Of a stretch of 61,293 nt of DNA, positions 11,763 through 30,967 are shown piece by piece. The DNA lies in assembly GCA_002773615.1 (NCBI GenBank), contig PFAP01000031.1:1-61293 (forward strand), read 5' to 3'. The position numbers were made by a program, and so were the translations under genes. Below the pieces are notes generated by a model. It did not search any database. It worked only from the letters and a program-made list of their open reading frames with translations, and was not told the origin of the DNA. Position 1 is the first letter of the stretch; the number at the start of each line of letters is the position of its first letter. The stretch comes from Candidatus Falkowbacteria bacterium CG10_big_fil_rev_8_21_14_0_10_39_11 (GTDB lineage: Bacteria; Patescibacteriota; Patescibacteriia; UBA11705).

Positions 11763-13469
11763 ATGATTCTTGATAATATTTTTTATCAAATTAGTTTATT
11801 ATTAGGCATAGTAACCGCTATTTCTTTTGTCGTCCATTTGTTGCGTCAGCCTCTGATAATTTCTTATATTATTACTGGTATTGTTAGTGGGCCGGTTTTG
11901 CTTAATATTATTGATTCCAATCAGGGTTTTTATGAGGCCTTTTCTGAATTTGGCGTTGTCTTGTTGTTGTTCGTCGTTGGGTTGAGTCTTAATTTTTCTT
12001 ATCTCAGACAAATTGGTCGAGTTGCCGTCACCGCCGGTGTGGCTCAGGTCTTTTTTACGTCCAGTCTTGGTCTTTTGATTTTACTGAATTTTGGTTTTAG
12101 TTTTATTTCCGCTGCCTATTTGGCGATTGCGATTACATTCTCGAGTACCATTATTATCATCAAGCTTCTTTCTGATAAAAGAGAGATGGAGTCTCTCTAT
12201 GGTCGGTATACCATTGGTTTGATGTTGGTGCAGGATGTGATTGCAATTTTTTTATTGCTTTTTATTCCTTTAGTTTCCTCCGACACGCCATTCCTTACTA
12301 CTTTGGGTGTTTGGCTTATAAAAGGAATTATTTTGTTTTCAGTTGTAGCCAGTCTATCAAAATTTGTTTTACCTAGGCTACTCAAACGAATCGCCAAATC
12401 CAGTGAATTCTTATTTATTTTTACAGTTGGTTGGTGTTTTGGTGTCGCCAGTTTGGCTCACTGGGGCGGTTTTTCACTTGAGGTCGGCGCTCTAATGGCC
12501 GGATTGTCCCTGGGGTCAACGCCGTATCATTTCGAAATCAGTAGTCGTATCAAACCGCTCAGAGATTTTTTTATCATGATTTTCTTTATTATTCTAGGCT
12601 CCCAAATGAACTTATCTGATTTGGGTGGAGTGATCGTTCCTGGTCTGGTGATATCAATGTTCGTTTTGATTGGTAATCCATTTATTCTTTACATCTTATA
12701 TCGATTGCAACATTTTACTCGCCGCAACAGTTTTCTCGCTGGTATCACCGCAGCTCAAGTGAGTGAGTTCGGTTTTGTTTTACTTTTTGTTGGTGAAAGA
12801 TTGGGGCATGTCTCAGATAAACAATTGGCCACTTATACGGTAGTCGCTTTGGTTACGATTTTTATCTCGTCATATTTGATTACATACAACAAGAAGATTT
12901 GGACAATTTTTCAGCCGGTCTTTGCTAAGTTTGGCAAAGATCATGCCCACCATCAAGACGAAGAGGTTGTTGAATTTGATGCTTGGGTTTTCGGCTATCA
13001 TCGGATGGGCTGGAAAATTGTTGAAACGCTCAAACAAGAAAAAATGACCTATGCCATTGTGGACTTTAACCCTGAGTATGTCCGTAAATTGAAAAATCGG
13101 GGAGAAGCTGCCTATTTTGGTGACACGGCCGATGTTGAATTTTTGGAAGAGTTACCGCTGCACAATGCTAAGTTGGTGATAATGACCATGCCAGATCCCA
13201 GTGATCAGATAACCGCTATTCAATTCTTACGCAAACATGATCCAAAAAAGAAAATGATTATCATTGGCACCCTAAACCATGCCAGCCACATTGATGACCT
13301 CTATCGCGCTGGTGCCAGCTATGTGATGATGCCGCATTTGCTCAGTGGTTTTTGGATGTCATCTGTGATCAAAAAACAAAAACTTATCAAGTCGACTTTT
13401 GATAAACTTAGACGCGAGCAACTTCAGGAATTAAACGAGCGTATTAAAATAGCCCAATCTTCAAGTTAG
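11763..13469 (+). CDS. CPA2 (Kef-type) monovalent cation:proton antiporter with a C-terminal RCK/TrkA-N-like domain
   Basis: About 12 TM segments typical of Kef/CPA2. C-terminal VDFNPEYVRKLKNRGEAAYFGDTADVEFLEEL. I chose the ATG at 11763 (MILDNIF) over the track start at 11712. Confidence 0.75.
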   Translation: MILDNIFYQISLLLGIVTAISFVVHLLRQPLIISYIITGIVSGPVLLNIIDSNQGFYEAFSEFGVVLLLFVVGLSLNFSYLRQIGRVAVTAGVAQVFFTSSLGLLILLNFGFSFISAAYLAIAITFSSTIIIIKLLSDKREMESLYGRYTIGLMLVQDVIAIFLLLFIPLVSSDTPFLTTLGVWLIKGIILFSVVASLSKFVLPRLLKRIAKSSEFLFIFTVGWCFGVASLAHWGGFSLEVGALMAGLSLGSTPYHFEISSRIKPLRDFFIMIFFIILGSQMNLSDLGGVIVPGLVISMFVLIGNPFILYILYRLQHFTRRNSFLAGITAAQVSEFGFVLLFVGERLGHVSDKQLATYTVVALVTIFISSYLITYNKKIWTIFQPVFAKFGKDHAHHQDEEVVEFDAWVFGYHRMGWKIVETLKQEKMTYAIVDFNPEYVRKLKNRGEAAYFGDTADVEFLEELPLHNAKLVIMTMPDPSDQITAIQFLRKHDPKKKMIIIGTLNHASHIDDLYRAGASYVMMPHLLSGFWMSSVIKKQKLIKSTFDKLRREQLQELNERIKIAQSSS

Positions 13470-13494
13470 TCCTGATATTTTCAGGACTTTTTTG
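13470..13494 (+). terminator. Intrinsic terminator
   Basis: GTCCTGA-tattt-TCAGGAC followed by TTTTTT. Confidence 0.7.
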
Positions 13495-13583: not shown

Positions 13584-13662
13584 TTACGTCTTACGAATTA
13601 CGCTTTACCAATTACTATATACTATTTATTAATTACTCTTTACCAATTACTAACTCACCCAT
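13584..13662 (+). promoter_or_regulatory. Heptad-phased TTAC array / SD-less leader
   Basis: TTAC (or a one-mismatch variant) starts at 13584, 13591, 13598, 13605, 13612, 13619, 13626, 13633, 13640 and 13647, exactly 7 nt apart. Confidence 0.5.
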
Positions 13663-13854
13663 ATGCCAAACATCAAAGCGTTCAAACAATTTGTCCGTGA
13701 AGAGCAGCACTACCCAGCTGGCAAATCTGATATTATTTCTAGTTGTACATATGCTGACAAGCTGACCGGTGATGATTGCACATGGCTAGAAACCAACTTG
13801 CCAGACAAAATTTATTACTCTGCTGATGAAATTCTCAAATCATTGACTTGGTAA
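13663..13854 (+). CDS. Small DUF2795-like protein
   Basis: 63 aa. The pattern ..YPAGKSDIISSC......D..WLE.NLPDKIYYSADEILKSL resembles DUF2795. Confidence 0.5.
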   Translation: MPNIKAFKQFVREEQHYPAGKSDIISSCTYADKLTGDDCTWLETNLPDKIYYSADEILKSLTW

Positions 13855-15737: not shown

Positions 15738-15821
15738 TATTATCTCAAATTAAAGAGAGTTAGTTGCAGTTAATGAATTAAATTCTAATTTATTAATTCG
15801 CTAATTTTCTAAAATAGTCCT

Positions 15822-16607
15822 ATGGCCATTGACACACAAACAATTATAAAATTACGTCAAATGACAGGTGCCGGTATGGTTGATTGTAAGAAAGCACTTG
15901 TGGCAGCTGAAGGAGATCTTGATAAAGCGATCGAAATTCTTCGTAAAAATGGTGAAGCCAAGGCGGCCAAGAAAGCTGAGCGAGAAACCAACGAAGGTAT
16001 TATTACTTTAGCTGAATCAGACGGTAAGGTTGCTTACGTTGCTCTAAAAAGTGAAACCGATTTTGTCGCTCGTAATGAAGATTTTATTGCTGCCGGCAAA
16101 GAACTGGCTGAAAAACTTTTGACCGTGAGCGAAGAAGAATTCAAAACTCTTGCTGAGACCAAGATCAAAAATGAACTGGTCGTAAAGATTGGCGAAAATA
16201 TCCAATTGGGTGATTATGGTGTGGTTTCAGATAAAGTGGTCGGTGCCTATTTACACTCCAACAAAAAAGTTGCCGCCATTGTCACATTATCTGCTGGTAC
16301 CAAGGATGTCGCAGTTGATGTTGGCATGCAAATAGTTGCCATGAGTCCAGAATATCTAAAGCCGGAAAATGTTCCAGCCGAAGTTGTCGACAAAGAAAAA
16401 GAAATCGCAACTGAGCAATTGAAAAAAGAAGGCAAACCAGCCGAGATTATTGAAAAAATCATTGGCGGTAAAATCACTAAATATTATCAAGAAGCTTGTT
16501 TGACCAAACAGATGTTTATCAAGGATGACAAAGTTTCCGTGGAGGACTACGTTAAATCTGCTGCCGACGGTGCTGAAATTACTTCATTTATCAAAATTGA
16601 ATTGTAA
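15822..16607 (+). CDS. tsf: Translation elongation factor Ts
   Basis: UBA-like N-terminus IKLRQMTGAGMVDCKKALVAAEGDLDKAIEILRK. It lies downstream of rpsB. Confidence 0.95.
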   Translation: MAIDTQTIIKLRQMTGAGMVDCKKALVAAEGDLDKAIEILRKNGEAKAAKKAERETNEGIITLAESDGKVAYVALKSETDFVARNEDFIAAGKELAEKLLTVSEEEFKTLAETKIKNELVVKIGENIQLGDYGVVSDKVVGAYLHSNKKVAAIVTLSAGTKDVAVDVGMQIVAMSPEYLKPENVPAEVVDKEKEIATEQLKKEGKPAEIIEKIIGGKITKYYQEACLTKQMFIKDDKVSVEDYVKSAADGAEITSFIKIEL

Positions 16608-16641
16608 TTTTTCTCCAAACTAAACACTACAAGCTAAACGC

Positions 16642-17445
16642 ATGAATATATACGAAGTACAAACAAAACCTTGGGACACAATCTTGTGTATTGAATTAGA
16701 GGCTGATTTGGCCCTGGGTAGTTATGTCTGTATTGAAAATGAACTGGGGCGGGATTTGGCCAAAATTATAACTAAAAATTCTGTCACCAAGGACAATCTG
16801 GCTACCGGTGATCATACCGTAGTCAAATTTGTTGACTCTGCTAGTCGAGAAGATATTGAACATGCTTTGGAGCTCAAGAAGAAAAACAAAAAAGCTTTAT
16901 CAGACTGCAAAGCTTTTGTCAAAAAGCACAACCTGCCCATGAAATTGGTAGACGTGCATTTTTCTTTTGATGACAAGCGTTTGACTTATGCTTTTATTTC
17001 CAATGGGCGCGTTGATTTTCGTCACCTGCTCCGCGATTTGGTCAAAATGTACAAATTGAACATTCGATTGCAACAAATTGGTATTCGTGATGAGATCAAG
17101 ATCAATGGAGATCTTGGTTGTTGTGGCGAAGCCCTATGTTGTCAGGATTTTCTTCGAGATTTGGGCAATGTTTCTTCAGATTTGGCCGATTTACAGCAAA
17201 TTTCACACCGCGGTTCAGATCGACTCAGTGGAGTTTGTGGTCGGCTCAAGTGTTGTCTCAATTATGAAAAAGAATGTTATCAGGACTGTGCCAAATGTTT
17301 ACCCGCAGTCGGGACCAAGGTTCGAACGGACTCTGGTCGGGGCAAGGTGATTGGTTGGCATACGCTCAAAAAGTCAGTCGATGTTAGATTGGATGAAGGG
17401 GACACTATTATTGAAGTCCCCATCAAAAATGATCCGAAAAAGTAA
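16642..17445 (+). CDS. PSP1 C-terminal domain protein (YaaT/RicT-like)
   Basis: KLVDVHFSFDDKRLTYAFISNGRVDFRHLLRDL...RLQQIGIRD, then a Cys cluster GCCGEALCCQDFL...CGRLKCCLNYE. Confidence 0.8.
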   Translation: MNIYEVQTKPWDTILCIELEADLALGSYVCIENELGRDLAKIITKNSVTKDNLATGDHTVVKFVDSASREDIEHALELKKKNKKALSDCKAFVKKHNLPMKLVDVHFSFDDKRLTYAFISNGRVDFRHLLRDLVKMYKLNIRLQQIGIRDEIKINGDLGCCGEALCCQDFLRDLGNVSSDLADLQQISHRGSDRLSGVCGRLKCCLNYEKECYQDCAKCLPAVGTKVRTDSGRGKVIGWHTLKKSVDVRLDEGDTIIEVPIKNDPKK

Positions 17446-17460
17446 ACTTTACATACAAAG

Positions 17461-17495
17461 ATCGTCTCCAGCCAGTCTGGGGGCGATTTTTTTTG
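17461..17495 (+). terminator. Intrinsic terminator
   Basis: An 11-bp stem AUCGUCUCCAG / CUGGGGGCGAU (two G-U pairs) followed by T8. Confidence 0.7.
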
Positions 17496-17520
17496 AGCTA
17501 TTTTATGTGAACGGATTGAT

Positions 17521-17549
17521 TTGCGAAAATAAGCAAAAAGCTATATAAT
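17521..17549 (+). promoter_or_regulatory. Sigma70-type promoter TTGCGA-17-TATAAT for pheS
   Basis: Read directly. It leaves a leader of about 180 nt containing two stem-loops. Confidence 0.55.
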
Positions 17550-17737
17550 ATATGTATTATTTTGCCCAGTTTTGAAGCAAGAAAGAACAAAGATAATTGG
17601 GCAAAAAAGACAATTGAGCGCAGCGAAACGAGCGATGGATTTAATTGTCTTTCTTTTTATAAATTCAATCAACCGGTTACTGTTACCACCATTATCATTC
17701 ATTACACTTATATCTCTTATTTTACTTAACAAACAAT

Positions 17738-18772
17738 ATGCAAGAAAAGTTAAATAAACTTAAAGATCAAGCTATCAGGGAGTTGTCTTTGGTCAAGAAT
17801 ATCAAACAATTAGATGATGTAGCTCAAAAATATTTTGGCCGCAAAGGCGGTGATCTGAACAACATTTTAAAAGGCTTAAAAGACCTTGATCCAGAAGCCA
17901 GAAAAGAAATCGGTTCACTGGCCAATGAAATTAAAGAGGAGTTGGAAGCCGCTGTTGAAGCTATTCGCCAAACGTTGAATGCTAAAGAGGTTGAATCCAA
18001 ATTAGAATCAGACTGGCTTGATGTCACATTGCCGGTTGATACCAACCTGGGGCATTTGCACCCGATCAGCATTGTTCAGTATGAATTGGAAGATTTGTTC
18101 AAGGGGCTTGGTTTTAAAATTCTTGATGGTCCTGAACTTGAATCAGACTATTACAATTTTGAAGCCTTGAACATCCCAAAACACCATCCAGCCCGTGACA
18201 TGCAGGATACTTTTTACGTTGACAATTCCAAAAATACCGACAAATGGGTGATGCGCGCTCATACTTCAAATGTCCAAGTTCGGGCGATGAAAGAGTTTGG
18301 TCCGCCGCTTAGAGCCGTAGTTCCAGGTCGAGTCTTTCGTTGCGAATCGACCGATGCGTCTCATGATACTACTTTTGATCAGCTGGAAGGCTTTATGATT
18401 GATGAAGATATATCAATTGCTAATCTGATTGCTGTGATGAAGGTTATGCTTTCAGCTATTTTTAAACGAGACGTCAAAGTTCGATTACGTCCAGGATATT
18501 TCCCGTTTGTAGAGCCAGGCTTTGAATTGGACATGCAGTGTCTCATCTGTGGCGGCAAGGGTTGTAGTGTTTGTAAACAAGTCGGTTGGCTTGAAATAAT
18601 GGGTTGCGGTATGATTCACCCGAATGTCTTGAAGGCCGGTGGTATTGATCCGGAAAAGTATTCAGGGTTTGCCTTTGGTTTAGGTTTGACCCGTTTTGTT
18701 ATGATGCGTTATGGTATTGAAGATATTAGGCATCTCAATTCGGGCGATCTGAGATTTTTAAAGCAGTTTTAA
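17738..18772 (+). CDS. pheS: Phenylalanine--tRNA ligase alpha subunit
   Basis: Class II aaRS motifs HPARDMQDTFY, FRCESTDASHDTTFDQLEG and GFAFGLGLTRFVMMRYGI. Confidence 0.95.
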   Translation: MQEKLNKLKDQAIRELSLVKNIKQLDDVAQKYFGRKGGDLNNILKGLKDLDPEARKEIGSLANEIKEELEAAVEAIRQTLNAKEVESKLESDWLDVTLPVDTNLGHLHPISIVQYELEDLFKGLGFKILDGPELESDYYNFEALNIPKHHPARDMQDTFYVDNSKNTDKWVMRAHTSNVQVRAMKEFGPPLRAVVPGRVFRCESTDASHDTTFDQLEGFMIDEDISIANLIAVMKVMLSAIFKRDVKVRLRPGYFPFVEPGFELDMQCLICGGKGCSVCKQVGWLEIMGCGMIHPNVLKAGGIDPEKYSGFAFGLGLTRFVMMRYGIEDIRHLNSGDLRFLKQF

Positions 18773-18787
18773 TGTATAAATAAAGGT

Positions 18788-19507
18788 ATGAACAAAAATT
18801 TTTTATTAATTGCTCTAATGATGGTATTGGGCTTGACTGGTTGTACTAGTATTTATAGATCTCAGCAGGTTGTTGACCGGTATGGGGGTGCTCTTGATTC
18901 AAAAATAGAGTCGGTGAATAAAGTCGCTCAAACGGCTAGTGAATTGGCTAGTGTTACGGTTGATTTTTTCGATGAGCAAGCAACCGTGATCCCCATCCAT
19001 CATTATGATCCAGATACCAGTGGAAATTTGTTGCTAGTTCAAATGGAGGATCTAAAAAATCTTGGACATGCTAGTGACAAAAATATGGATTTATTATACT
19101 TCTCACCATTGCAAAGTGCCGTCGCATTTCTTGACCGGCAGACTGATTATGATGATAGTTTTTTACAGCCCGGTACGGCAGCTAATTCAATTCAAGTGGT
19201 TCAGAAAACAAAATATCTTGGTGTTATCCGCACCACCAAGTTTATAGATCCTGTAATTCAGCAAAATGATTGGGATGAAGTTGTTTTTGATGCTGGATCA
19301 TACACTGGAGACATTGTATTTTATAATCTCGAAAGTCAGAAATATATTGGAGCCTTTAACTTTTATGCGGAAAATAGTGATGGCTTAGATGTTTATGAGG
19401 GAGAGGAATTAAAAAATCTTCGGAATGATCTTTGGAGTAATACCCGAAAAGCAATCAATGCTAAATGGACAAAATATCAAGGTGAAAGCAGTTTACTATT
19501 AGACTAA
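18788..19507 (+). CDS. Lipoprotein of unknown function
   Basis: Signal peptide with lipobox LGLTGC. Confidence 0.7.
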   Translation: MNKNFLLIALMMVLGLTGCTSIYRSQQVVDRYGGALDSKIESVNKVAQTASELASVTVDFFDEQATVIPIHHYDPDTSGNLLLVQMEDLKNLGHASDKNMDLLYFSPLQSAVAFLDRQTDYDDSFLQPGTAANSIQVVQKTKYLGVIRTTKFIDPVIQQNDWDEVVFDAGSYTGDIVFYNLESQKYIGAFNFYAENSDGLDVYEGEELKNLRNDLWSNTRKAINAKWTKYQGESSLLLD

Positions 19508-19519
19508 GTTTCAGCAAAT

Positions 19520-20413
19520 ATGAGTTTTGAATATAAACCAGGAAAAAAAAATGAGCAATTAGCCAAAAATCGATCAACCAAGAATGAAAAACAGATCTCT
19601 GAGGCCAAACAAAGATTATTATCCAGTTTTGAAGCTATTGATGAACAGGGTCTGACTTTGCGCAAAGAATTGTTGCCCATGAAATGGGCAGATGTTATTG
19701 ATTTGGTTGTTGAGGATTGCTCCGACGACACCATTAAGGCCAGGCGCCGAGAGCTTTTGGAAGCAATAGATCCTGAACAATTTATCAAAGATTTTGATGA
19801 ACACACAAAACAACAATTGCATAGTTTCTCTGCTCTTCGTGGGTTGATTTTTGAAGCCCTGGTTTTACGAGAGTTCAATGAGAACGAAGACAATAGTTTG
19901 TTGGCTGATTTTCTTCTTCAAGCTTTGAGGTATCCCAAGATGGTCGGTATTAAGAAAAATCTCAAACGAAAAAATCCAGATCATCTGGCTGTTGTCGTTG
20001 ATCGTGAGAAGGGAATTGCTTATATTACCGGAATAATGGAAGTTAAAATTACCATGGCCAAAGGCAAACGGTTCAAAGAACAACTGGAGAATTTTTATGG
20101 CAACCTAGAGGAAGTGATTGAAGCCCTTAATAAAGATATTTCCGATTTAAAAGATAAATATGATCTGGATTTTTTACCAGAAAATGGAATTCAGCTTTTA
20201 CCGTTTAAAGAAATGAAAACTCTATTGGTGCGACCGCTCAGTCTGCGTGAAAAACTTTATTTTGAACCCACTACCAATGAAGATGGTTGGGAATATCGGC
20301 GCTCAATTATCGGTCAGCGTGATGCGGAGTGGATTACCGCTTTTATGATGAATCTCGCTCGCGAACGCAGTCTGGTCACCAAAGCCCAGGAGAGACAAAT
20401 GAAACTTAGTTAA
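19520..20413 (+). CDS. Hypothetical protein with a PD-(D/E)xK nuclease-like motif (paralog A)
   Basis: GLIFEALVLREF ... NPDHLAVVVDREKGIAYITGIMEVKI, read as E / PD / ExK spacing. Clear paralog of the next ORF. Confidence 0.6.
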   Translation: MSFEYKPGKKNEQLAKNRSTKNEKQISEAKQRLLSSFEAIDEQGLTLRKELLPMKWADVIDLVVEDCSDDTIKARRRELLEAIDPEQFIKDFDEHTKQQLHSFSALRGLIFEALVLREFNENEDNSLLADFLLQALRYPKMVGIKKNLKRKNPDHLAVVVDREKGIAYITGIMEVKITMAKGKRFKEQLENFYGNLEEVIEALNKDISDLKDKYDLDFLPENGIQLLPFKEMKTLLVRPLSLREKLYFEPTTNEDGWEYRRSIIGQRDAEWITAFMMNLARERSLVTKAQERQMKLS

Positions 20414-20417
20414 ATAT

Positions 20418-21428
20418 ATGAAACTTGAAGGAGTACAGCCAGTTTGGGAACCTCTTGATGAGTCTGGTGGGCCAGAAGTTATTCGTCGTCCCAAGGAAAA
20501 TAGAACGAATGAAAAAACTGTTATTGATGGACTCGATGTCGATTTGTCGGAAAGAGAACGGGCAAAAGTAGCCCAAAAGGCTCAACAAAGTTCGCGTAAA
20601 TCTGTTGAATTGGTGAGACGAAGGGGGCAAAGTCTCAGAGATTCTGTTCAGAGTCAAGATTTTGATAATGTTGTCTCTGCAATTATAAATACGAGTGAAG
20701 ATATTACTTTTCAGGAAAGAAAAAGGGAGTTGTTAGAATCATTTAATATAGAAAGTTTTGTTGCTAGTTTACCAAAAGAAGTTTATAAAATGATAGAAGA
20801 TTTTCGTTCATTCAGGGGGTATGTATTTGAGTATATTGCTAAAAGAGAATTCAATAGTAATGAAAAAAATAGTTTGTTGGCAGAATTCATACTAGAGTGT
20901 TTAACAAATCCCCATCTTTTTGAACTGGGGCCAGCTGGCTTCCGTAGCCCAGATAATCTAGGTGTCGTGGTGGATGTTGAGCGTAAAGTGGCCTATATTA
21001 CTGGCATGTATGAAGTTAAGTTTGGAGGAGTTGCTCACAAGACTACAACAAAGCAAAAAGTGCAAAGAAAAAGATTTTATGGTGATCTCCAGCGAATTTC
21101 AGAACGCATCAACAGTCATTTGAAGAGGTTAAAGGACAAGTATCATGTTGATTTTATCCCGGCTGGTGGTATCACAGTTTTAGCTCAAGATGAAATGGAC
21201 AAGTTTTATGTATATCCAATGCCCAAAGATGCATCTGATCTTAGACGAGTTGGAGACAAAAGAAAGGCTCTACAACGGTTAGGTTGGAAAATAAGAACAT
21301 CAGTTTTTTCTCAGGGCGATATTGAGATCTTAACAGCATTCATCATGAATTTTGCAGAAGAAAGAAAGGTCCAACCCAGATACGAAGAATTTGATTTGCG
21401 AGAAGACGGCACCATGATCAAAAAATAA
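20418..21428 (+). CDS. Hypothetical protein with a PD-(D/E)xK nuclease-like motif (paralog B)
   Basis: GYVFEYIAKREF ... SPDNLGVVVDVERKVAYITGMYEVKF. It starts 4 nt after the stop of paralog A. Confidence 0.6.
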   Translation: MKLEGVQPVWEPLDESGGPEVIRRPKENRTNEKTVIDGLDVDLSERERAKVAQKAQQSSRKSVELVRRRGQSLRDSVQSQDFDNVVSAIINTSEDITFQERKRELLESFNIESFVASLPKEVYKMIEDFRSFRGYVFEYIAKREFNSNEKNSLLAEFILECLTNPHLFELGPAGFRSPDNLGVVVDVERKVAYITGMYEVKFGGVAHKTTTKQKVQRKRFYGDLQRISERINSHLKRLKDKYHVDFIPAGGITVLAQDEMDKFYVYPMPKDASDLRRVGDKRKALQRLGWKIRTSVFSQGDIEILTAFIMNFAEERKVQPRYEEFDLREDGTMIKK

Positions 21429-21435
21429 TTTTCAA

Positions 21436-21496
21436 TTACAAATTACTTATTACATATTACTCATTATCCTTTACTCGTTACTAATTACTGATTTAT
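21436..21496 (+). promoter_or_regulatory. Heptad-phased TTAC array / G-depleted SD-less leader of pheT
   Basis: TTAC starts at 21436, 21443, 21450, 21457, (TTAT at 21464), 21471, 21478 and 21485. Only 2 G occur in the 68-nt spacer. Confidence 0.5.
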
Positions 21497-23932
21497 ATGA
21501 AAATTTCACTAAACTGGCTCAAACAATACGTAGATTTACCAAAAAACATCACTCCAGATCAGCTCGGAGTTGATTTGACGCTCAAAAGCGTTGAGATCGA
21601 AGGTGTGGAGAGTCAAGGTGCTGATTTGGATAACATTATCGTGGCCAAAATAACAGAATTAAAACCGCATCCCAATGCCGACAAATTGAGAATCGCTGTC
21701 GTTGATGATGGTGAACATAACGTACAAGTTGTTTGCGGCGGCTCTAATCTTGAAGTGGGAATGCTGGTCGCATTTGCCCGTGTTGGTTCCCGCGTCCGGT
21801 GGCACGGAGAAGGGGAGCTAGTAACTTTGGCCAAAGTTAAACTCCGAGGCGAAGACAGCAGCGGCATGATTTGCACTTCATCCGAAGTTGGCTTGGGTGG
21901 CATTTTCCCCGCCAAAGAAGAATCTGAGATTCTTGATTTGACTGAACAGAGTTTCAAGGTTGGTCAATCGATCGCTGAAGCTTTGAACTTAAATGACACT
22001 TTGCTTGACCTCGACAACAAAGCCATTACCAATCGACCTGACATGTGGGGCCACTATGGCATTGCTCGGGAAGTTGCGGCCATTTATAATAAAAAAATAG
22101 ATAAGTATAAGGTTAAAGACATAAAAACAGAGAAGCTTGAAGAATTATCAGTTGAAATTCAAGATCCCGAGCTTTGTCGCCGTTATTTGGGAGTGGTGAT
22201 TGACGGTGTCAAGGTTGGCCCATCTTCAGATTGGTTGGTTGAACGCTTGCAATCAGTCGGCCAAAAATCAATCAACAACATTGTTGATATCACCAACTAT
22301 ATATTGTATGACTTGGGTCAGCCTATGCATGCTTTTGATGCTGGTTTGATTTCAGACAATAAAATTATTGTTCGTCGAGCTGAAAAGGGGGAGAAGTTTA
22401 CCACTCTGGATGAAGAAGAACGCAAATTGACTGAAGAAAACCTAGTCATTGCCGACGGTGACAAAGCCGTGGCCTTGGCTGGAGTGATGGGAGGTTTGAA
22501 CTCTGAGATCAAAAATGAAACAACCAAAGTTATTCTCGAATCAGCCAATTTTGAGCCGTTTTCGATTCGCAAAACCGCCGAAAGTCTTGGTCTGCGAACT
22601 GAGTCATCAACCAGATTTGAGAAAAATCTTGATCCTGCCATGGCAGAGTTAGCCTTAAAAAAAGCTGTTGAGCTGATTCTCGATTGTTGCCCGGAAGCCA
22701 AGGTTATTAGCCCGGTTGTTGACGAGTACCCAACCAAAATTGAAACGGTCAAAATTGAAGTCGGATTTGATTTTATTAACAAACGAATCGGGGTTCAGTT
22801 GGAGAAAAAAGAAATTGAGAAAATTTTGGATCGCTTGGGTTTTGACTTAAAAGCAAAAGGAGATAAATTAATTGTTACCGTCCCTTCCTGGCGCGCCACC
22901 AAAGACATTTCCATTGCCGAAGATATTGTTGAAGAAGTCGCTCGGATGTATGGTTATGACAATATTGAACCTCAAATGCCGGCCGTTCCACTGTGCATCC
23001 CGCACCAAAACATTGAACGAGAACTTGAGAGAAAAATTAAGAATATCTTGGTCAAGGCTTGTGGTGCTACTGAAGTCCACAACTATTCATTTGTCGGTGA
23101 TGATGAAATTAAAAATCTTGGACTTGATGTCAAAAAGTATGTTGAATTGGAAAATCCTCTAACGGCTGATCAAAATTTACTTCGCCGAGAACTATTTTCT
23201 GGTCTTTTAAACAATGTTGTTGATAACCTCCGCTTTTATCCGGAGCTAAATATTTTTGAAATTGGCCATGTTTATTTGGCCGAACAACCCGGTCACGAAG
23301 CGGGCCCAGATAGTCAGGGCGTCTTGCCGGATCAACCATCAATCGCGGGTGGCATGACCGTCTGCAAAGATGATTCTTTTATGGCAGCCAAAAAATGTTT
23401 GGAAACTACCATGACGGAAATGCAATTGGATTTCAAAGCCTATCGGGAAAAAGAGGTTCCGGCCTGGATTCATCCCAAGCGTTATCTGCCATATTATGTT
23501 GGGGACAAACAAATTGCCTATGTTGGTGAAGTCCATCCATCAATCAGTAATGGCATGGATATTGATCAGCGAGTTGCTTTTTGGCGCGTTGATTTGAGTG
23601 CTGTGTCTGAGCTATACAATCGACAATATAAATATCAGTTAGTTAACAAATTCCCAAGTGTCGAATTGGATGCATCGATTACATTAGATGAAAAAGTTAC
23701 TTGGCAGGAAGTGGAACAAATTGTTCACAGCGCCGCGCCTCAATTTATCAAGAAGATTGTCTTGTTTGATGTCTATAAAAGTGATAAAATTGGAGTAGAT
23801 AAAAAGAGTTTAGCTTTTCACGTTGTGTATCAATCGGAAGATCGAACTTTAGAATCAGCTGAAGTCCAAAAAATGCACGATACCATGTTGAGTCAATTAG
23901 CCAAGAGTGTCAAAGCTGTAGTCCGAAAATAA
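21497..23932 (+). CDS. pheT: Phenylalanine--tRNA ligase beta subunit
   Basis: 811 aa. N-terminal MKISLNWLKQYVDL, tRNA-binding OB domain (HPNADKLRIAVVD), B3/4 and B5 regions, and a C-terminal FDVY...SLAF motif. Confidence 0.95.
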   Translation: MKISLNWLKQYVDLPKNITPDQLGVDLTLKSVEIEGVESQGADLDNIIVAKITELKPHPNADKLRIAVVDDGEHNVQVVCGGSNLEVGMLVAFARVGSRVRWHGEGELVTLAKVKLRGEDSSGMICTSSEVGLGGIFPAKEESEILDLTEQSFKVGQSIAEALNLNDTLLDLDNKAITNRPDMWGHYGIAREVAAIYNKKIDKYKVKDIKTEKLEELSVEIQDPELCRRYLGVVIDGVKVGPSSDWLVERLQSVGQKSINNIVDITNYILYDLGQPMHAFDAGLISDNKIIVRRAEKGEKFTTLDEEERKLTEENLVIADGDKAVALAGVMGGLNSEIKNETTKVILESANFEPFSIRKTAESLGLRTESSTRFEKNLDPAMAELALKKAVELILDCCPEAKVISPVVDEYPTKIETVKIEVGFDFINKRIGVQLEKKEIEKILDRLGFDLKAKGDKLIVTVPSWRATKDISIAEDIVEEVARMYGYDNIEPQMPAVPLCIPHQNIERELERKIKNILVKACGATEVHNYSFVGDDEIKNLGLDVKKYVELENPLTADQNLLRRELFSGLLNNVVDNLRFYPELNIFEIGHVYLAEQPGHEAGPDSQGVLPDQPSIAGGMTVCKDDSFMAAKKCLETTMTEMQLDFKAYREKEVPAWIHPKRYLPYYVGDKQIAYVGEVHPSISNGMDIDQRVAFWRVDLSAVSELYNRQYKYQLVNKFPSVELDASITLDEKVTWQEVEQIVHSAAPQFIKKIVLFDVYKSDKIGVDKKSLAFHVVYQSEDRTLESAEVQKMHDTMLSQLAKSVKAVVRK

Positions 23933-23933
23933 T

Positions 23934-24434
23934 ATGGATTTTAGAGAGACTATAAAAGAAAGTGGTGGGGATAAAGAATTTGATAAGGGGAACCTGTTCC
24001 GAGCTCTAAAGGAAGCTGTTAAGCTCGCAAATATCAAAGATTCAAATGCATTAGGCGTTATCTTGTATGGTAGCCAAACTCATGGAACAGCTCGTCCTGA
24101 CAGTGATGCTGATTTGTTGGTTATTCGAGCTACAAATGACTCTGATATCAATTACAAAAGCCCAGCTCGCGATGAATTGCAATTAGCTGCCAAATCAAAA
24201 TTGGAAGAGTTTGACATTGATGCCACATTTGAAAATCCCACAACTCTGGACTTGGATTGGGCCAGGAGTCATGCAGACAAAAAATTTGTTAGGGATAGTT
24301 TTTGGATGCTAGATGATGCTTCGATTATCATTGTTGGTGATGATGGCCTAGAAGAAGAAATAAGAAGCCTTTTAGGTTTTTCTGGCAGAAAATCTCAACG
24401 TGAGTTAATGGGAGATCCCAGATATCAAAAATAA
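23934..24434 (+). CDS. Pol-beta superfamily nucleotidyltransferase domain protein
   Basis: LYGSQTHGTARPDSDADLLVI (GS-x9-D-x-D motif). The start lies 2 nt after the pheT stop. Confidence 0.65.
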   Translation: MDFRETIKESGGDKEFDKGNLFRALKEAVKLANIKDSNALGVILYGSQTHGTARPDSDADLLVIRATNDSDINYKSPARDELQLAAKSKLEEFDIDATFENPTTLDLDWARSHADKKFVRDSFWMLDDASIIIVGDDGLEEEIRSLLGFSGRKSQRELMGDPRYQK

Positions 24435-24455
24435 AAAAAATAAAAATAAAAAAGT

Positions 24456-24746
24456 ATGTTAGAAAGCGGTGATGTTTTAAACTACGTCATAGCTGGTAGT
24501 GTGGTACTTTTTACCATATTCTTGTGCATCTTGTTGTTTAATATCATCAAGTTGCTTCGTCAGGCCAATCGTGCAGTGGACGAGGTTCGGCGCAAGATTG
24601 AGGCAGTTCATGAATTGATTTCCGGCGGATTTTCCAAGTTCGGAATGATGTCTGAAGTTGCCAAATATGCCTTGGGGCATTTTATGGGTGAGAAAAAGAA
24701 AACCCAGACCACAAAGGCGCGAAAAACAACAAAAAATAAAAAGTAA
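24456..24746 (+). CDS. Small membrane-anchored coiled-coil protein (DUF948-like)
   Basis: One N-terminal TM helix, then a helical segment and a Lys-rich tail. Confidence 0.5.
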   Translation: MLESGDVLNYVIAGSVVLFTIFLCILLFNIIKLLRQANRAVDEVRRKIEAVHELISGGFSKFGMMSEVAKYALGHFMGEKKKTQTTKARKTTKNKK

Positions 24747-24758
24747 AAAAATAATTCC

Positions 24759-27299: not shown

Positions 27300-27366
27300 A
27301 TTTTAAAATAAAAAATAAGACCTGATGAGAATTTGATTCTTTTATAGGTCAAAAAACAAAAATAAA

Positions 27367-27966: not shown

Positions 27967-27975
27967 GAGTCTTGT

Positions 27976-28004
27976 GTCATACTGAGCTTGTCGAAGCACC
28001 GAAG
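27976..28004. repeat. Partial REP-like element (GTCATACTGAGCTTGTCGAAGCA)
   Basis: It shares GTCANNCTGAGCTTGTC with the element at 28621. Confidence 0.55.
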
Positions 28005-29050: not shown

Positions 29051-29084
29051 CTTAATCTTTCAATTATCTCAAAATAATCCCACA

Positions 29085-29158
29085 TCTTAAATCTCAATTC
29101 CTAATTCCTGCCTCTAACTTACCATTTATTCTTTACCCCTTACTCATTACTGACTTCT
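29085..29158 (+). promoter_or_regulatory. Heptad-phased T(T/C)AC array / G-depleted SD-less leader of dnaX
   Basis: TTAC at 29119, (TTAT at 29126), 29133, 29140 and 29147. Only 2 G occur in the 108 nt before the ATG. The last 32 nt are 26/32 identical to the pheT leader. Confidence 0.5.
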
Positions 29159-30967
29159 ATGTCCGTCGCTCTCTATCGCAAATACCGGCCGCAGAAATTT
29201 TCTGACGTCTCCGGCCAAAATCACATCAAAGTAACAATTCAAAACGAGCTTGAAGCTGACAAATTGGCTCACGCCTATCTTTTTTGTGGTCCAAGAGGTA
29301 CCGGTAAGACGACCATGGCTCGGTTATTGGCCAAGGCGGTCAACTGTACAGATTTAAAAGAAAATGGAGAGCCCTGTAATGAATGTGATTCTTGTACAGA
29401 GCTAATGAGCGGTCGCGCGATGGATATTATTGAGATTGACGCTGCTTCCCACACCGGTGTTGATAATGTTCGCGAAAATATCATCAACAACGCCAGGTTT
29501 ACACCGAGCAAGTCAAAATTCAAAGTTTTTATCATTGACGAGGTCCACATGTTGTCAATTTCCGCCTTCAATGCTTTACTCAAAGTTTTGGAAGAACCGC
29601 CATCACACGTTCTCTTTATTCTCGCCACTACAGAAGTTCACAAAATTCCGGTCACTATTATTTCTCGCTGCCAGCGTTTTGATTTTCAAAAAGTCATTTT
29701 CAATGAATTGGTCAAAAGGTTGCAGTGGATCGTGGGCGAAGAGGGGATCAAGGTTGATAAGGTTGTGTTAGAATTGATCGCCAAAAATGCTGGCGGTTGT
29801 GTTCGTGATGCGGAGAGTTTGCTCGAACAAGTTTTGAGTTTGGGTGAAAAACACATTACTCTTGATCAGGTTTCCTTAATTTTACCCCGTTCATCTTACG
29901 AGACATTGGTTGAGTTTGCCACGTTTCTTTTTCGCAAAGACACAAAGTCAGGTATCATGCTGCTCAATCGGTTGATTGATGAGGGTGTGGATGTTAATAA
30001 TTTTTATAATAATTTGCTGGAGTTTTTACGCAAGGTCATGTTGGTCAAGATTACTGGGGACAGCACCGAGTTGTTGCAGGATGTGGACGACAACATGTTC
30101 AAAAAGATCAATGATATGGTTAGTGAAATCCCAGCCGCTGAAATTAACCGAATTATTACCATTTTTCTCAAAATTAAAGACTTATTTAAACATACAAATA
30201 TTCTCCAGCTCCCATTGGAAGTCGCCATTGTCGAGATCTCTGAGGGCGCAATGACCATTCCGGCCATTCCCACTCAATCAGATCAAAACACTGCGCCTGT
30301 CGCTCCTCCAGCCCCTCCAGTTGAGCCACCAGTTCAAGCAATAGCTCCAGAACCGGTCGCCAGTACGCCAGCTCAAACGCCTGAAGTTGAAGCCGAAGAA
30401 CCGTCAGAAGAAAAAATCGAAGAAGTTGAGACCGATTATTCCAATGACGATAACCCCGAACCTCCTGCAGCCGATTCACCGCAACCACCGGCTGACAATT
30501 CAACTCAAGAGCCAGCCGACACCGAACCAGTGACTCCAAATATCAAAAACAATAATGGCATGAGTGTTACTTTCAATCAAGTCTTGTCTCGTTGGGGCTA
30601 TATTGTTCAATGCATTATCAAGAAAAATTATACGCTGGGTATGTCTTTGAGTGTTGGTAAGCCATATGCTCTTGAAGGTAATACTTTGACCTTGGGGTTC
30701 ATTTTCAGTTTACAAAAAGATCAGGTCGACAAACCGGACAACTTGAATGCGATCAAGCAGGTTTTAATGGAAGAAATGGGCGCCCAAGTAAATATCGCCA
30801 CCATTGTTGACTCCGAGATCAAGCTGAGAGAGATCGCTCCTGGCGCTGAAAGACCGCCATTCAATCAGAATCTTCAGGCTGAAGTCAAAATTGAACAACA
30901 AGAAACCAAAGACCCGATCGGCCAAGTTCTCGACGCCTTCGGTGGGGCGGTTGTAGATAAGGTTTAA
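29159..30967 (+). CDS. dnaX: DNA polymerase III subunit gamma/tau
   Basis: YRPQKFSDVSGQNHI, Walker A GPRGTGKTT, a CxxC zinc module, Walker B FIIDEVHML, SRCQRF, and a Pro-rich linker. Confidence 0.95.
   Translation: MSVALYRKYRPQKFSDVSGQNHIKVTIQNELEADKLAHAYLFCGPRGTGKTTMARLLAKAVNCTDLKENGEPCNECDSCTELMSGRAMDIIEIDAASHTGVDNVRENIINNARFTPSKSKFKVFIIDEVHMLSISAFNALLKVLEEPPSHVLFILATTEVHKIPVTIISRCQRFDFQKVIFNELVKRLQWIVGEEGIKVDKVVLELIAKNAGGCVRDAESLLEQVLSLGEKHITLDQVSLILPRSSYETLVEFATFLFRKDTKSGIMLLNRLIDEGVDVNNFYNNLLEFLRKVMLVKITGDSTELLQDVDDNMFKKINDMVSEIPAAEINRIITIFLKIKDLFKHTNILQLPLEVAIVEISEGAMTIPAIPTQSDQNTAPVAPPAPPVEPPVQAIAPEPVASTPAQTPEVEAEEPSEEKIEEVETDYSNDDNPEPPAADSPQPPADNSTQEPADTEPVTPNIKNNNGMSVTFNQVLSRWGYIVQCIIKKNYTLGMSLSVGKPYALEGNTLTLGFIFSLQKDQVDKPDNLNAIKQVLMEEMGAQVNIATIVDSEIKLREIAPGAERPPFNQNLQAEVKIEQQETKDPIGQVLDAFGGAVVDKV

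What the first reader, a model, noticed from the sequence alone, without database searches (positions are those of the whole stretch)
21436..21496. Heptad-phased TTAC arrays forming G-depleted, SD-less leaders upstream of pheT, dnaX and a small gene
Directly upstream of three start codons the motif TTAC recurs at an exact 7-nt period. Upstream of pheT it starts at 21436/43/50/57/(64 TTAT)/71/78/85. Upstream of dnaX it starts at 29119/(26 TTAT)/33/40/47, with T-initial heptads traceable back to about 29085. Upstream of the 63-aa gene there are ten phased units from 13584 to 13647. The spacers between TTAC cores vary, so this is not a simple microsatellite. The leaders are almost G-free: 2 G in the 68 nt before pheT and 2 G in the 108 nt before dnaX. 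They lack any SD site. The last 32 nt before the pheT and dnaX ATGs are 26/32 identical, and the final TTAC sits 12 nt from the ATG in both. In contrast, accessory ORFs in this window carry strong AGGAGG sites. Periodic short motifs with variable spacers are how oligomeric RNA-binding regulators such as TRAP recognise targets. G-poor AUUAC-repeat leaders also recall the TMV omega translational enhancer, which works without SD in bacteria. This looks like an undescribed translation-initiation or regulatory element.
Basis: seen in the sequence. Interest (0 to 1): 0.65.

Follow-up and report, generated by a model that had tools for sequence, protein, structure and literature searches.

The report
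Heptad TTAC repeats before start codons
Three genes of an uncultured Patescibacteria (CPR) bacterium are preceded by degenerate 7-base TTAC repeats that form almost G-free, unfolded leaders without a Shine-Dalgarno site; they belong to an already described but unexplained class of heptanucleotide repeats in front of start codons, and are not a conserved new regulator.

Summary
TTAC recurs at an exact 7-nt period only on the + strand. It does so only in three places, each ending 9-13 nt before an ATG: a 63-aa ORF, pheT and dnaX. There are 8 matches to TTACN3TTACN3TTAC against 0 in shuffles. These leaders, plus the unphased pheS leader, are the four most G-poor and least structured of 58 leaders. 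They have no SD pairing and no upstream start-like codon.

The organism is a Falkowbacteria-like Patescibacterium that uses SD at only about 12-19% of genes. In the closest relative (PheT 73%, same gene order) the TTAC heptads are absent. There the pheS and dnaX leaders are still G-poor but carry AATTTC repeats at 8-11 nt spacing, the pheT leader carries ATTCGTA, and the 63-aa leader is 17 nt long. More distant relatives put GTAAT-type heptamers (the opposite orientation) before start codons. So neither phase, motif nor orientation is conserved.

Heptamer repeats just upstream of SD-less start codons are already described (TAACTGA in Beggiatoaceae, cyanobacteria and Bacteroidetes), without a proven mechanism.

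Best reading: these are repeats of slippage or dispersed-repeat origin, kept because they give an open, start-codon-free landing zone for SD-independent initiation. A TRAP-like regulator is not supported.

The parts
13584..13660 (+). Array 1: 11 heptads in register (TTACGTC TTACGAA TTACGCT TTACCAA TTACTAT ATACTAT TTATTAA TTACTCT TTACCAA TTACTAA CTCACCC). The last 60 nt before the ATG contain no G.
13468..13488 (+). Terminator-like hairpin with a T run, straddling the stop codon of the Na+/H+ exchanger gene (ORF ends at 13469). Array 1 lies between it and the 63-aa ORF. No sigma-70-like promoter was found in between.
13663..13854 (+). 63-aa ORF. It is conserved in the 73% relative (L288 4369-4560), where its leader is only 17 nt. 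There is a weak sub-threshold DUF2795 match.
17683..17737 (+). pheS leader. A 55-nt G-free run with 3 TTAC and 3 TTAT that are not in strict 7-nt phase; a fourth TTAC at 17677-17680 lies just upstream of the run and is counted in the 60-nt leader. A promoter-like site lies at 17521-17549.
17738..18772 (+). pheS (Phe_tRNA-synt_N and tRNA-synt_2d domains).
18788..21428 (+). Three ORFs (239, 297 and 336 aa) without Pfam hits, lying between pheS and pheT. This junction carries different ORFs in each relative.
21436..21491 (+). Array 2: 8 heptads (TTACAAA TTACTTA TTACATA TTACTCA TTATCCT TTACTCG TTACTAA TTACTGA). They fill the 68-nt spacer 21429-21496. Its period-7 autocorrelation of 0.69 is the highest of the 126 intergenic spacers examined.
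21497..23932 (+). pheT (tRNA_bind, B3_4, B5, tRNA_synthFbeta and FDX-ACB domains). The start matches residue 1 of homologues.
29084..29153 (+). Array 3: 10 heptads in register (ATCTTAA ATCTCAA TTCCTAA TTCCTGC CTCTAAC TTACCAT TTATTCT TTACCCC TTACTCA TTACTGA). The 108-nt spacer 29051-29158 has 32 C and 2 G.
29159..30967 (+). dnaX (DNA_pol3_delta2, AAA, DNAX_ATPase_lid and DNA_pol3_gamma3 domains).
16620..16641 (+). Three heptads of a different family (CTAAACA CTACAAG CTAAACG), ending 1 nt before the ATG of the PSP1-domain gene. They are a degenerate member of the CPR-wide AGCTAWM family.

Best explanation
The three arrays are degenerate heptanucleotide tandem repeats. They belong to the ATTAC-NN / NN-GTAAT family that is also found in relatives and in many other phyla. 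They most likely arose by slippage or tandem duplication in intergenic spacers of a Falkowbacteria-like Patescibacterium.

In this genome they sit on the sense strand and make up the untranslated spacer in front of pheT, dnaX and a 63-aa gene. The pheT array starts 8 nt after the preceding stop codon. No promoter-like site separates the dnaX array from the 73-aa ORF upstream. The 63-aa gene's array follows a terminator.

Because the repeats contain almost no G, the RNA cannot form G-C or G-U pairs and cannot contain AUG, GUG or UUG. The leader is therefore an open, single-stranded stretch without decoy start codons, and the first start codon a ribosome meets is the true one.

In an organism where most genes lack a Shine-Dalgarno site, such a stretch would act as a landing or standby zone for SD-independent initiation. 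This would probably work through the affinity of the 30S subunit and protein S1 for unstructured A/U/C-rich RNA, as with the TMV omega leader.

Shown here: the repeats, their strand and position, the G depletion, the absence of SD pairing, the absence of predicted structure, and the rapid turnover between relatives. Inferred: that the arrays are transcribed as part of the mRNA, that they promote initiation, and that composition rather than the 7-nt phase is the selected property.
For: - The arrays are real, strand-specific and adjacent to ATGs.
- The 63-aa, pheS, pheT and dnaX leaders have 0-2 G in 60 nt. About 0.25 such leaders are expected among 58; 4 are observed.
- The same four leaders rank 1-4 for lack of structure. 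The 60-nt leader has an MFE of 0.0 kcal/mol. The 90-nt window around the start has -0.6 to -3.8 kcal/mol, against a mean of -11.3. The centroid structure of the pheT leader is fully open.
- Shuffles fold equally weakly, so composition rather than base order explains the openness.
- These four leaders contain no start-like codon, against a mean of 2.1 per leader, and show no anti-SD pairing.
- Only 7-11 of 58 ORFs have SD pairing. TGnTATAAT boxes lie 5-7 nt from some ATGs, which suggests leaderless mRNAs.
- The pheT array starts 8 nt after the preceding stop codon, and no promoter-like site lies in or between the arrays and the ATGs.
- In the 73% relative L288 the pheS and dnaX leaders are again G-poor (2 G in 60 nt) although built from a different repeat, AATTTC. 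That motif occurs 13 times in sense leaders and once in antisense. Orthologues of p96, DUF8128 and p199 keep A-rich leaders in all relatives. So composition is conserved while sequence is not.
- Across phyla, (TTACNNN)5 arrays have an ORF start within 40 nt more often on the TTAC strand: 31 against 15 (p=0.026). For G-free arrays the split is 13 against 4.
- Literature: non-SD genes rely on low structure around the start (PMC5397173); S1 mediates SD-independent translation of the TMV omega leader and of U-rich leaders (PMC13577412); TAACTGA heptamers replace SD sites in Beggiatoaceae (PMC4679880).
Against: - There are no expression, TSS or ribosome data for this uncultured organism.
- If only composition mattered, the conserved TTAC core would be unexplained. 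Mismatches to consensus are 18 of 116 cells in positions 1-4 against 41 of 87 in positions 5-7, p=2e-6. The test is partly biased by how the arrays were found.
- In relatives the same heptamer family lies before start codons in the opposite, G-containing orientation: L288 pheT and rpsB; L295 PSP1, pheS, p203 and dnaX. Some of those arrays form hairpins with an inverted partner. The family as such is therefore not an RNA-strand-specific signal.
- Most cross-phylum arrays are not next to a start codon.
- The 63-aa orthologue in L288 works with a 17-nt leader.
- Only three arrays in 61 kb could be examined for this genome.
Confidence: 0.5

Rival explanations
1. The heptads are specific binding sites on the mRNA for a trans-acting factor that contacts about 7 nt per subunit or domain. 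Candidates are cold-shock-domain proteins, the OB folds of S1, or an unknown oligomeric RNA-binding protein. The factor would recruit or block ribosomes at a small regulon that includes pheS, pheT and dnaX.
For: - The 4-nt core is conserved and the spacers vary in three independent arrays.
- The same motif recurs in several unlinked leaders of one genome and a different one in the relative. AATTAC occurs 10 times in sense leaders in the window. AATTTC occurs 13 times in sense and once in antisense in L288, and never in window leaders.
- In L288 the AATTTC spacing varies (8, 8, 10; 11, 8; 11, 11, 11), which argues for a motif rather than a pure tandem repeat.
- The last TTAC starts 12 nt before the ATG in both pheT and dnaX.
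- CspB binds one protein per heptamer (reviewed in PMC4679880).
Against: - No candidate protein was identified in the window.
- The motif changes between genomes with 73% PheT identity, so a factor would have to co-evolve quickly.
- The same heptamer family occurs in the opposite orientation before start codons in L288 and L295.
- The 26/32 identity between the pheT and dnaX leaders mostly follows from the shared register.
- The 63-aa orthologue has no array.
Confidence: 0.15
2. The arrays are functionally neutral. They are products of replication slippage, or copies of a dispersed repeat family, that accumulate in intergenic spacers because they are tolerated there. Their closeness to ATGs simply reflects short spacers in a compact, mostly co-oriented genome.
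For: - Heptanucleotide repeats are the commonest long simple-sequence-repeat class in prokaryotes and are attributed to polymerase slippage (Mrazek 2007, as cited in PMC4679880).
- Lag 7 is the most frequent best period among 126 spacers of this CPR group: 27 spacers against about 14 expected. Exact 7-mer tandem duplicates are 3-6 times the shuffle level.
- Arrays turn over completely between syntenic relatives.
- The pheT and dnaX arrays fill almost the whole spacer, so being next to the ATG carries no information for them.
- Orientation is mixed across relatives.
Against: - G depletion recurs at the same genes (pheS, dnaX) in two genomes through different repeats.
- All window arrays are in sense orientation and free of start codons.
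- The core is conserved while the spacers have diverged.
- The array is invariant in 7 samples, although these may come from one population.
- There is a cross-phylum bias towards the sense strand.
Confidence: 0.2
3. The C-rich, G-poor, unstructured spacers are Rho utilisation (rut) sites. They would couple transcription of the downstream gene to translation, giving polarity or attenuation.
For: The dnaX spacer has 32 C and 2 G in 108 nt, and the 63-aa spacer has 55 C and 14 G in 193 nt. Both are unstructured. That composition and length are typical of rut sites (general knowledge).
Against: - The pheT spacer is T-rich rather than C-rich (12 C in 68 nt).
- The conserved C lies in an AC context, not in the YC dimer bound by Rho's primary site (general knowledge).
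- A constitutive rut site in front of essential genes would be costly.
- No rho gene or termination data were examined.
Confidence: 0.05
4. The repeats act on DNA, as tandem binding sites for a transcription factor or as part of a promoter, like the TTTTGAT heptads of the ctxAB promoter.
For: - The same heptamer family occurs in both orientations upstream of genes in relatives, as expected for a double-stranded DNA site.
- Heptad repeats in promoters are known (10.1101/2021.05.14.444153, abstract shown).
Against: - No sigma-70-like -35 or -10 elements lie in or downstream of the arrays.
- The pheT array starts 8 nt after the preceding stop codon and ends 9 nt before the ATG, leaving no room for a promoter plus leader.
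- A 7-bp period puts successive sites on different faces of the helix.
- Extreme strand asymmetry in G and C is not needed for binding to double-stranded DNA.
Confidence: 0.05
5. UUAC repeats pair with a non-canonical, lineage-specific segment of 16S rRNA and act as an alternative to the Shine-Dalgarno site.
For: The only hint is that the motif differs between genomes, as a co-varying RNA partner would allow.
Against: - Canonical AGGAGG sites are used by some genes of the same genome, so the anti-SD is probably standard.
- No rRNA gene is present in the window, and the 16S of this organism could not be obtained.
- Only a 4-nt core is conserved.
Confidence: 0.03

Closest known systems
TAACTGA heptamer direct repeats of Beggiatoaceae, some cyanobacteria and Bacteroidetes (MacGregor 2015, PMC4679880)
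   Same: - 7-nt tandem units in intergenic DNA.
- 'Forward' orientation, ending a few nt before start codons and taking the place of an SD site.
- Found in front of essential genes.
- No predicted RNA structure.
- Arrays often interrupted by related heptamers.
- The last unit before pheT and dnaX (TTACTGA) differs from TAACTGA by one base.
   Different: - The core here is TTAC, with three variable positions and no fixed heptamer.
- The arrays are longer (8-11 units) and nearly G-free.
- The host is a Patescibacterium.
- Only three arrays were seen in 61 kb, against 169 sets per Beggiatoaceae genome.
- The function of the TAACTGA repeats is itself only hypothesised.
Heptanucleotide long simple-sequence repeats and cyanobacterial heptamer repeats (Mrazek 2007 via PMC4679880; Nostoc recF/recO, 10.1101/2022.06.06.494920)
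   Same: - Period 7, intergenic, attributed to slippage.
- (TTACNNN)n arrays such as TTACCAA, TTACTCA and TTACGAA are common in cyanobacteria, Bacteroidota, Chloroflexota, Planctomycetota and some CPR.
- Some end directly at an ATG.
   Different: Those arrays are mostly perfect or near-perfect repeats. The window arrays are degenerate, with 68-85% matches by Tandem Repeats Finder, and showed no copy-number variation in 7 samples.
TMV omega leader and S1-dependent SD-independent initiation (PMC13577412 and references therein)
   Same: - G-poor, unstructured A/U/C-rich leader lacking an SD site.
- From my own knowledge, omega contains ACAAUUAC direct repeats; the pheT array begins CAAUUACAAAUUAC.
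   Different: - Omega is a viral 5' UTR with a (CAA)n core and no 7-nt phase.
- S1 binding and enhancer activity are untested here.
Structure-poor non-SD initiation regions of Bacteroidetes, cyanobacteria and others (Nakagawa 2017, PMC5397173)
   Same: A genome with few SD sites and reduced folding around the start codons.
   Different: Those regions are described as compositional biases, not as phased repeat arrays.
TRAP (trp RNA-binding attenuation protein) and HutP target sites
   Same: Short motifs repeated with variable spacers on single-stranded RNA. HutP sites (UAG-N4) also have a 7-nt period (general knowledge).
   Different: - The motif is UUAC, not (G/U)AG or UAG.
- The targets are pheT and dnaX rather than trp or hut genes.
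- No such protein was seen.
- The arrays are not conserved in relatives.

Membership tests
Start-codon-proximal heptanucleotide direct repeats (TAACTGA type; heptanucleotide simple-sequence repeats) | Tandem units of exactly 7 nt, at least 2-3 copies | tested here: met
   8-11 units per array, with 0 expected by chance
Start-codon-proximal heptanucleotide direct repeats (TAACTGA type; heptanucleotide simple-sequence repeats) | Intergenic, oriented towards a downstream start codon and ending within a few nt of it | tested here: met
   all three arrays are on the sense strand, and the last TTAC starts 12, 12 and 16 nt before the ATG
Start-codon-proximal heptanucleotide direct repeats (TAACTGA type; heptanucleotide simple-sequence repeats) | No Shine-Dalgarno site between the repeat and the start codon | tested here: met
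   anti-SD duplex energy is +0.6 to +2.8 kcal/mol for the four leaders
Start-codon-proximal heptanucleotide direct repeats (TAACTGA type; heptanucleotide simple-sequence repeats) | One fixed heptamer repeated identically (for the TAACTGA family, that exact sequence) | tested here: not met
   only positions 1-4 are conserved (76-100%) and positions 5-7 are about 50%; the unit is TTACNNN, not TAACTGA
Start-codon-proximal heptanucleotide direct repeats (TAACTGA type; heptanucleotide simple-sequence repeats) | The same repeat present at many loci across the genome | tested here: inconclusive
   Three arrays plus one unphased leader in 61 kb, and none in the 10 kb downstream. The rest of the genome could not be reached.
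TRAP / HutP-type oligomeric RNA-binding protein target | (G/U)AG or UAG triplets repeated with 2-3 nt (TRAP) or 4 nt (HutP) spacers | tested here: not met
   the core is TTAC and the arrays have almost no G; only the 7-nt period matches HutP spacing
TRAP / HutP-type oligomeric RNA-binding protein target | The cognate protein is encoded in the genome | not tested
   Only 11 window ORFs have Pfam results here: 10 scanned (two of them re-scanned) plus pheT from the precomputed hits. None is such a protein. The whole genome is not available.
TRAP / HutP-type oligomeric RNA-binding protein target | The site is conserved at orthologous leaders | tested here: not met
   TTAC heptads are absent from the pheT, dnaX and 63-aa leaders of L288, L289, L294 and L295
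S1-dependent SD-independent translational enhancer (omega-like) | Unstructured, G-poor A/U/C-rich leader without an SD site | tested here: met
S1-dependent SD-independent translational enhancer (omega-like) | Binds ribosomal protein S1 and raises translation | not testable with these tools
   Needs binding and reporter assays. Whether rpsA is present in this genome is unknown.
Rho utilisation (rut) site | At least 70-80 nt of unstructured RNA with C well in excess of G | tested here: inconclusive
   met for dnaX (32 C, 2 G in 108 nt) and the 63-aa spacer (55 C, 14 G in 193 nt); the pheT spacer is only 68 nt with 12 C
Rho utilisation (rut) site | Rho-dependent termination downstream | not testable with these tools
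   No transcript data
Sigma-70 promoter | -35 and -10 hexamers at 16-18 nt spacing upstream of a transcription start | tested here: not met
   no + strand site in or after the arrays
Known structured RNA leader (Rfam) | Match to a covariance model | tested here: not met
   only a tRNA-Gln and one chance-level hit

The most novel reading that the evidence does not exclude
In this branch of the Patescibacteria, short repeats with a roughly 7-nt footprint in front of start codons would be a true substitute for the Shine-Dalgarno site. The examples are AAUUAC here, AAUUUC in UBA11705, and the CPR-wide AGCUAWM element before ftsZ, dnaG, glyA and tsf. A trans-acting factor, such as OB-fold S1 or cold-shock-type domains or an unknown RNA, would read them. 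The preferred motif would drift between genomes, and the elements would spread like small mobile repeats.
Probability: 0.15. Interest if true: 0.7.

Novelty: new member of a known kind. Interest (0 to 1): 0.35.

Why it matters
How ribosomes find start codons without a Shine-Dalgarno site is still open for large parts of the bacterial tree, and almost nothing is known for the uncultured, small-genome Patescibacteria. These arrays are clean natural examples of G-free, structure-free and decoy-free leaders in front of essential genes. They extend the puzzling class of heptamer repeats before start codons from Beggiatoaceae, cyanobacteria and Bacteroidetes to the CPR.

If the repeats were shown to enhance or regulate initiation, they would offer a simple portable SD-independent leader. 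They would also explain why 7-nt repeats are so over-represented in some genomes. If they prove to be mere filler, the finding is ordinary.

Tried and rejected
- **Known RNA families:** Rfam found nothing in the leaders, at gathering threshold over the whole window or at E<=1 over 13300-29300.
- **Promoters:** the sigma-70 promoter scan found no + strand site inside or after the arrays. The promoter reading was rejected.
- **Direct orthologue comparison:** pheT homologues in GTDB species representatives and in JGI metagenomes reach only 46-47% identity. Most have pheS abutting pheT with no spacer, so they say nothing. The large protein search supplied the useful relatives at 73% and 50-54%. 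One locus had no DNA available.
- **Repeat-number polymorphism:** the 63-aa leader is identical in 7 samples and the pheT leader in 3. This gives no evidence for or against slippage; the samples may be one population.
- **Walking along the 96-143 kb contig:** Only 10 kb downstream and 1 kb upstream were added.
- **A shared module in the pheT and dnaX leaders:** the 26/32 identity is largely explained by the shared heptad register, which gives 17-23/32 at other in-phase offsets.
- **16S rRNA complementarity:** no rRNA gene is in the window and the organism's 16S could not be fetched, so this was not tested.
- **The 63-aa protein as an RNA-binding autoregulator:** it has only a weak DUF2795 hit, and its orthologue lacks the array. 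Rejected.
Full report

Reading the three sites shows the stated TTAC/TTAT series at the stated coordinates.
- On the + strand, TTAC-TTAC distances of 7, 14, 21, 28 and 35 nt occur 15, 13, 9, 8 and 6 times, against a background of 0-4. On the - strand they occur 0, 0, 2, 1 and 0 times.
- Chains of at least 3 phased TTAC exist only at 13584-13650, 21436-21488 and 29119-29150, all on the + strand.
- TTACN3TTACN3TTAC has 8 matches against 0.00 in 100 dinucleotide-preserving shuffles.
- A motif-free scan for period-7 self-similarity picks out the 63-aa and pheT arrays plus one A-rich stretch at 24404-24457, and nothing in shuffles. Tandem Repeats Finder reports the same two arrays with periods 7 and 14.
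- Written in register, the 29 heptads have T at position 2 in 29 of 29, T at position 1 in 24, A at position 3 in 23 and C at position 4 in 22. Positions 5-7 agree with their consensus only about half the time. The heterogeneity test gives chi-square p=5e-5, and core against spacer gives p=2e-6. The arrays were ascertained through TTAC, which biases this test.
- G counts, the 12-nt distance of the last TTAC from the ATG, and the 26/32 identity are all correct. However, pheT compared with dnaX or the 63-aa leader at other in-phase offsets already gives 17-23/32. The similarity of the two leaders is therefore mostly a consequence of the shared register.

**2. What surrounds the arrays?**

The window comes from an uncultured Patescibacterium.
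- PheT is 73% identical to that of Candidatus Falkowbacteria UBA11705 (GCA_003518055.1) and 45-57% identical to many Magasanikbacteria and Falkowbacteria MAGs.
- The same contig occurs in several groundwater-type assemblies.
- Gene order is Na+/H+ exchanger, 63-aa ORF, HD-domain gene, rpsB, tsf, PSP1, pheS, three unknown ORFs, pheT, further genes including a DUF8128 ATPase, then dnaX. This order is shared with relatives L288 (73%), L289 (54%), L294 (52%) and L295 (50%).
- Only 7-11 of 58 ORFs show anti-SD pairing. Several promoters of the TGnTATAAT type lie 5-7 nt from the ATG, which suggests leaderless mRNAs. Lack of SD is therefore the norm here, not a peculiarity of the three genes.

The array leaders are peculiar in composition and folding.
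- The 63-aa, pheS, pheT and dnaX leaders have 0, 1, 2 and 2 G in 60 nt. At the mean leader G content of 14.8%, P(<=2) is 0.004, so 0.25 such leaders are expected among 58 and 4 are observed.
- They contain no ATG, GTG or TTG, against a mean of 2.1 per leader.
- They are the four least structured leaders. The 60-nt leader has an MFE of 0.0 kcal/mol. The 90-nt window around the start has -0.6 to -3.8 kcal/mol, against a mean of -11.3.
- Shuffled versions fold just as weakly. Openness follows from G depletion, not from the 7-nt order.
- The pheT array starts 8 nt after the stop codon of the preceding ORF. No sigma-70-like promoter lies in or after any array. The 63-aa array follows a terminator-like hairpin. 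No Rfam family matches.

**3. Comparative test.**

- In L288 the 63-aa orthologue has a 17-nt leader without repeats.
- The pheT leader there carries ATTCGTA three times, which is the reverse complement of the TTACGAA-type unit.
- The pheS, dnaX and p91 leaders are again G-poor (2, 2 and 1 G in 60 nt). They are built from AATTTC at spacings of 11 and 8; 8, 8 and 10; and 11, 11 and 11 nt.
- AATTTC occurs 13 times in sense leaders of L288 and once in antisense, and never in window leaders. AATTAC occurs 10 times in window sense leaders.
- In L295 the PSP1, pheS, p203 and dnaX genes are directly preceded by GTAAT-type heptamers (ATTCGTA, ATCTGTA, ATCAGTA). tsf is preceded by AGCTAWM heptads. A minus-strand tRNA methyltransferase gene is preceded by sense TTAC heptads.
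- L289 shows little of this: none of its orthologous leaders is G-poor, and only one of its spacers (7807-7861) is strongly period-7. L294 has AATTTAG heptads before tsf and G-poor (3 G in 60 nt) leaders before pheS and pheT, built from other repeats.
- In L001 (46%) the pheS-pheT spacer holds GTAG heptads followed by CTAC heptads that fold into a -38.4 kcal/mol hairpin.
- Across 126 intergenic spacers of this group, lag 7 is the commonest best period: 27 spacers against about 14 expected, and 6 of the 12 strongly periodic ones. The pheT spacer is the most periodic of all. Exact tandem 7-mers are 3-6 times more frequent than in shuffles.

Heptamer repeats in spacers are thus a trait of the clade. 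Motif, phase and orientation at a given gene turn over quickly. What recurs at pheS and dnaX between the two closest genomes is G-poor composition.

**4. Beyond the clade.**

(TTACNNN)5 arrays are widespread in cyanobacteria, Bacteroidota, Chloroflexota, Planctomycetota and some CPR, mostly as near-perfect repeats. Of 110 usable arrays, 31 have an ORF start within 40 nt downstream on the TTAC strand and 15 on the opposite strand (p=0.026). For G-free arrays the split is 13 against 4. The bias is real but modest, and most arrays are not next to a start.

**5. Known parallels.**

[quoted passage not shown] Most are in forward orientation within a few nt of start codons and take the place of an SD site. 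They are not predicted to fold, and they also occur in cyanobacteria and Bacteroidetes. S1, cold-shock proteins (one CspB per heptamer) or CsrA were proposed as readers, but nothing was tested.
- That paper also cites Mrazek 2007: heptanucleotides are the most abundant long simple-sequence repeats, possibly because of polymerase slippage.
- A Nostoc preprint reports heptamer repeats near start codons or promoters with unclear regulatory effects.
- Non-SD genes generally show reduced structure around the start (PMC5397173).
- S1 mediates SD-independent translation of the TMV omega leader and of U-rich leaders in E. coli (PMC13577412).

The element class is therefore described, although its mechanism is not.

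**6. Interpretation.**

The best-supported reading has two parts.
- Origin: slippage or dispersed heptanucleotide repeats.
- Role: a G-free, unfolded, start-codon-free spacer that lets SD-independent initiation pick the right AUG. This matters most for cistrons that lost translational coupling, such as pheT, which is separated from pheS by an insertion hot spot.

I give this 0.5.

The conserved TTAC core and the genome-specific recurrence of one motif in several leaders keep a sequence-specific reader alive (0.15). The mixed orientation in relatives and the rapid turnover keep pure neutrality alive (0.2). Rho loading sites, DNA-level sites and alternative rRNA pairing are minor rivals.

**7. 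Verdict.**

The finding is a new member, in the CPR, of a known but unexplained kind. Interest is moderate to low (0.35).

**8. By-product.**

A second heptad family (AGCTAWM, with a 21-nt super-period) turned up.
- An identical 31-mer lies at different sites in L288 and L295.
- The exact 25-mer occurs in 18 genomes, nearly all Patescibacteria of many classes.
- It lies 6-10 nt before the ATG of genes that look by eye like ftsZ, dnaG and glyA, and before tsf.
- It also sits inside long ORFs without interrupting the reading frame (L303, L306, L309, L310, L311, L316), often with an inverted copy nearby.

This looks like a CPR-wide dispersed or mobile repeat. It deserves its own study, and it suggests that the TTAC arrays are part of a broader repeat biology rather than gene-specific regulators.

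Noticed in passing
L288 5000-5030; L295 5729-5759; L303-L320; window 16620-16641: A second heptad family (AGCTAWM; 21-nt super-period TATAAGC-TAACAGC-TAAAAGC). An identical 31-mer lies at non-orthologous sites in two relatives. The exact 25-mer AAGCTATAAGCTAACAGCTAAAAGC occurs in 18 genomes, nearly all Patescibacteria of many classes. It lies 6-10 nt before the ATG of genes that look by eye like ftsZ, dnaG and glyA, and before tsf. It also sits inside long ORFs without interrupting the frame (read by eye as SYKLTAK in L306), often with an inverted copy 20-60 nt away. It looks like a CPR-wide dispersed or mobile repeat.
   Followed up: partly
L284 15480-15543 (same contig, about 4.9 kb beyond the window end): A C-free period-7 array, GATTTGA TATTTGA TTTTTGA ... 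TAGGATT TAGAGAT TAGAAAT TAGAATT. It lies between a 23S_rRNA_IVP-family gene and the next ORF, which has a GGAG site. Its last four units have the (UAG-N4) spacing of HutP sites.
   Followed up: no
L001 2868-3000: In a 46% relative the pheS-pheT spacer holds seven GTAG heptads followed by four or five CTAC heptads. They fold into a long imperfect hairpin (-38.4 kcal/mol, z=-2.4) that would sequester the region before the pheT ATG.
   Followed up: partly
window 18788-21428; L288 9084-10000; L289 7807-10000; L295 8442-10000: The pheS-pheT junction is an insertion hot spot in this clade. It holds three Pfam-less ORFs here, two small ORFs in L288, an IVP/NIF3/280-aa set in L289, a 506-aa ORF in L295, and nothing in L294 or most other CPR.
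   Followed up: partly
window 24419-24455, 24720-24758, 27340-27366 and orthologous leaders in L288, L289, L294, L295: A-rich leaders (aaaaataaaaa...) precede the p96, DUF8128-ATPase and p199 genes and their orthologues in all relatives. Composition is conserved while sequence is not. This may be a second type of SD-less leader.
   Followed up: partly
window 38790-38818; L289 9975-10000 and 9110-9135: TGnTATAAT-type -10 boxes end 5-7 nt before the ATG (window 38819; L289 pheT and p280). This suggests leaderless mRNAs in this lineage.
   Followed up: no
window 14578-14981: A 404-nt ORF-free region lies upstream of rpsB. It shares a 20-mer with L288 (window 14748-14767 = L288 5056-5075). It also holds three TTTGTAA(C) repeats (period 9) and an AAGGA site just before the ATG. 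It may be an rpsB leader or a small RNA. There is no Rfam hit.
   Followed up: no
window 8001-10000: An island of 51% GC in a window of about 39% GC. It contains ORF 8358-9434, which has the strongest SD site (GGAGGAGG) and a nearly full-length antisense ORF. It is probably foreign DNA.
   Followed up: no
window 13663-13854: The 63-aa ORF is conserved in L288 and gives a weak sub-threshold DUF2795 match (E=0.11).
   Followed up: partly
L284 10553-10898 versus L285 3731-4528: The spacer after the 183-aa gene is 346 nt in one assembly and 798 nt in another that encodes identical flanking proteins. This is an indel of about 450 nt between populations.
   Followed up: no
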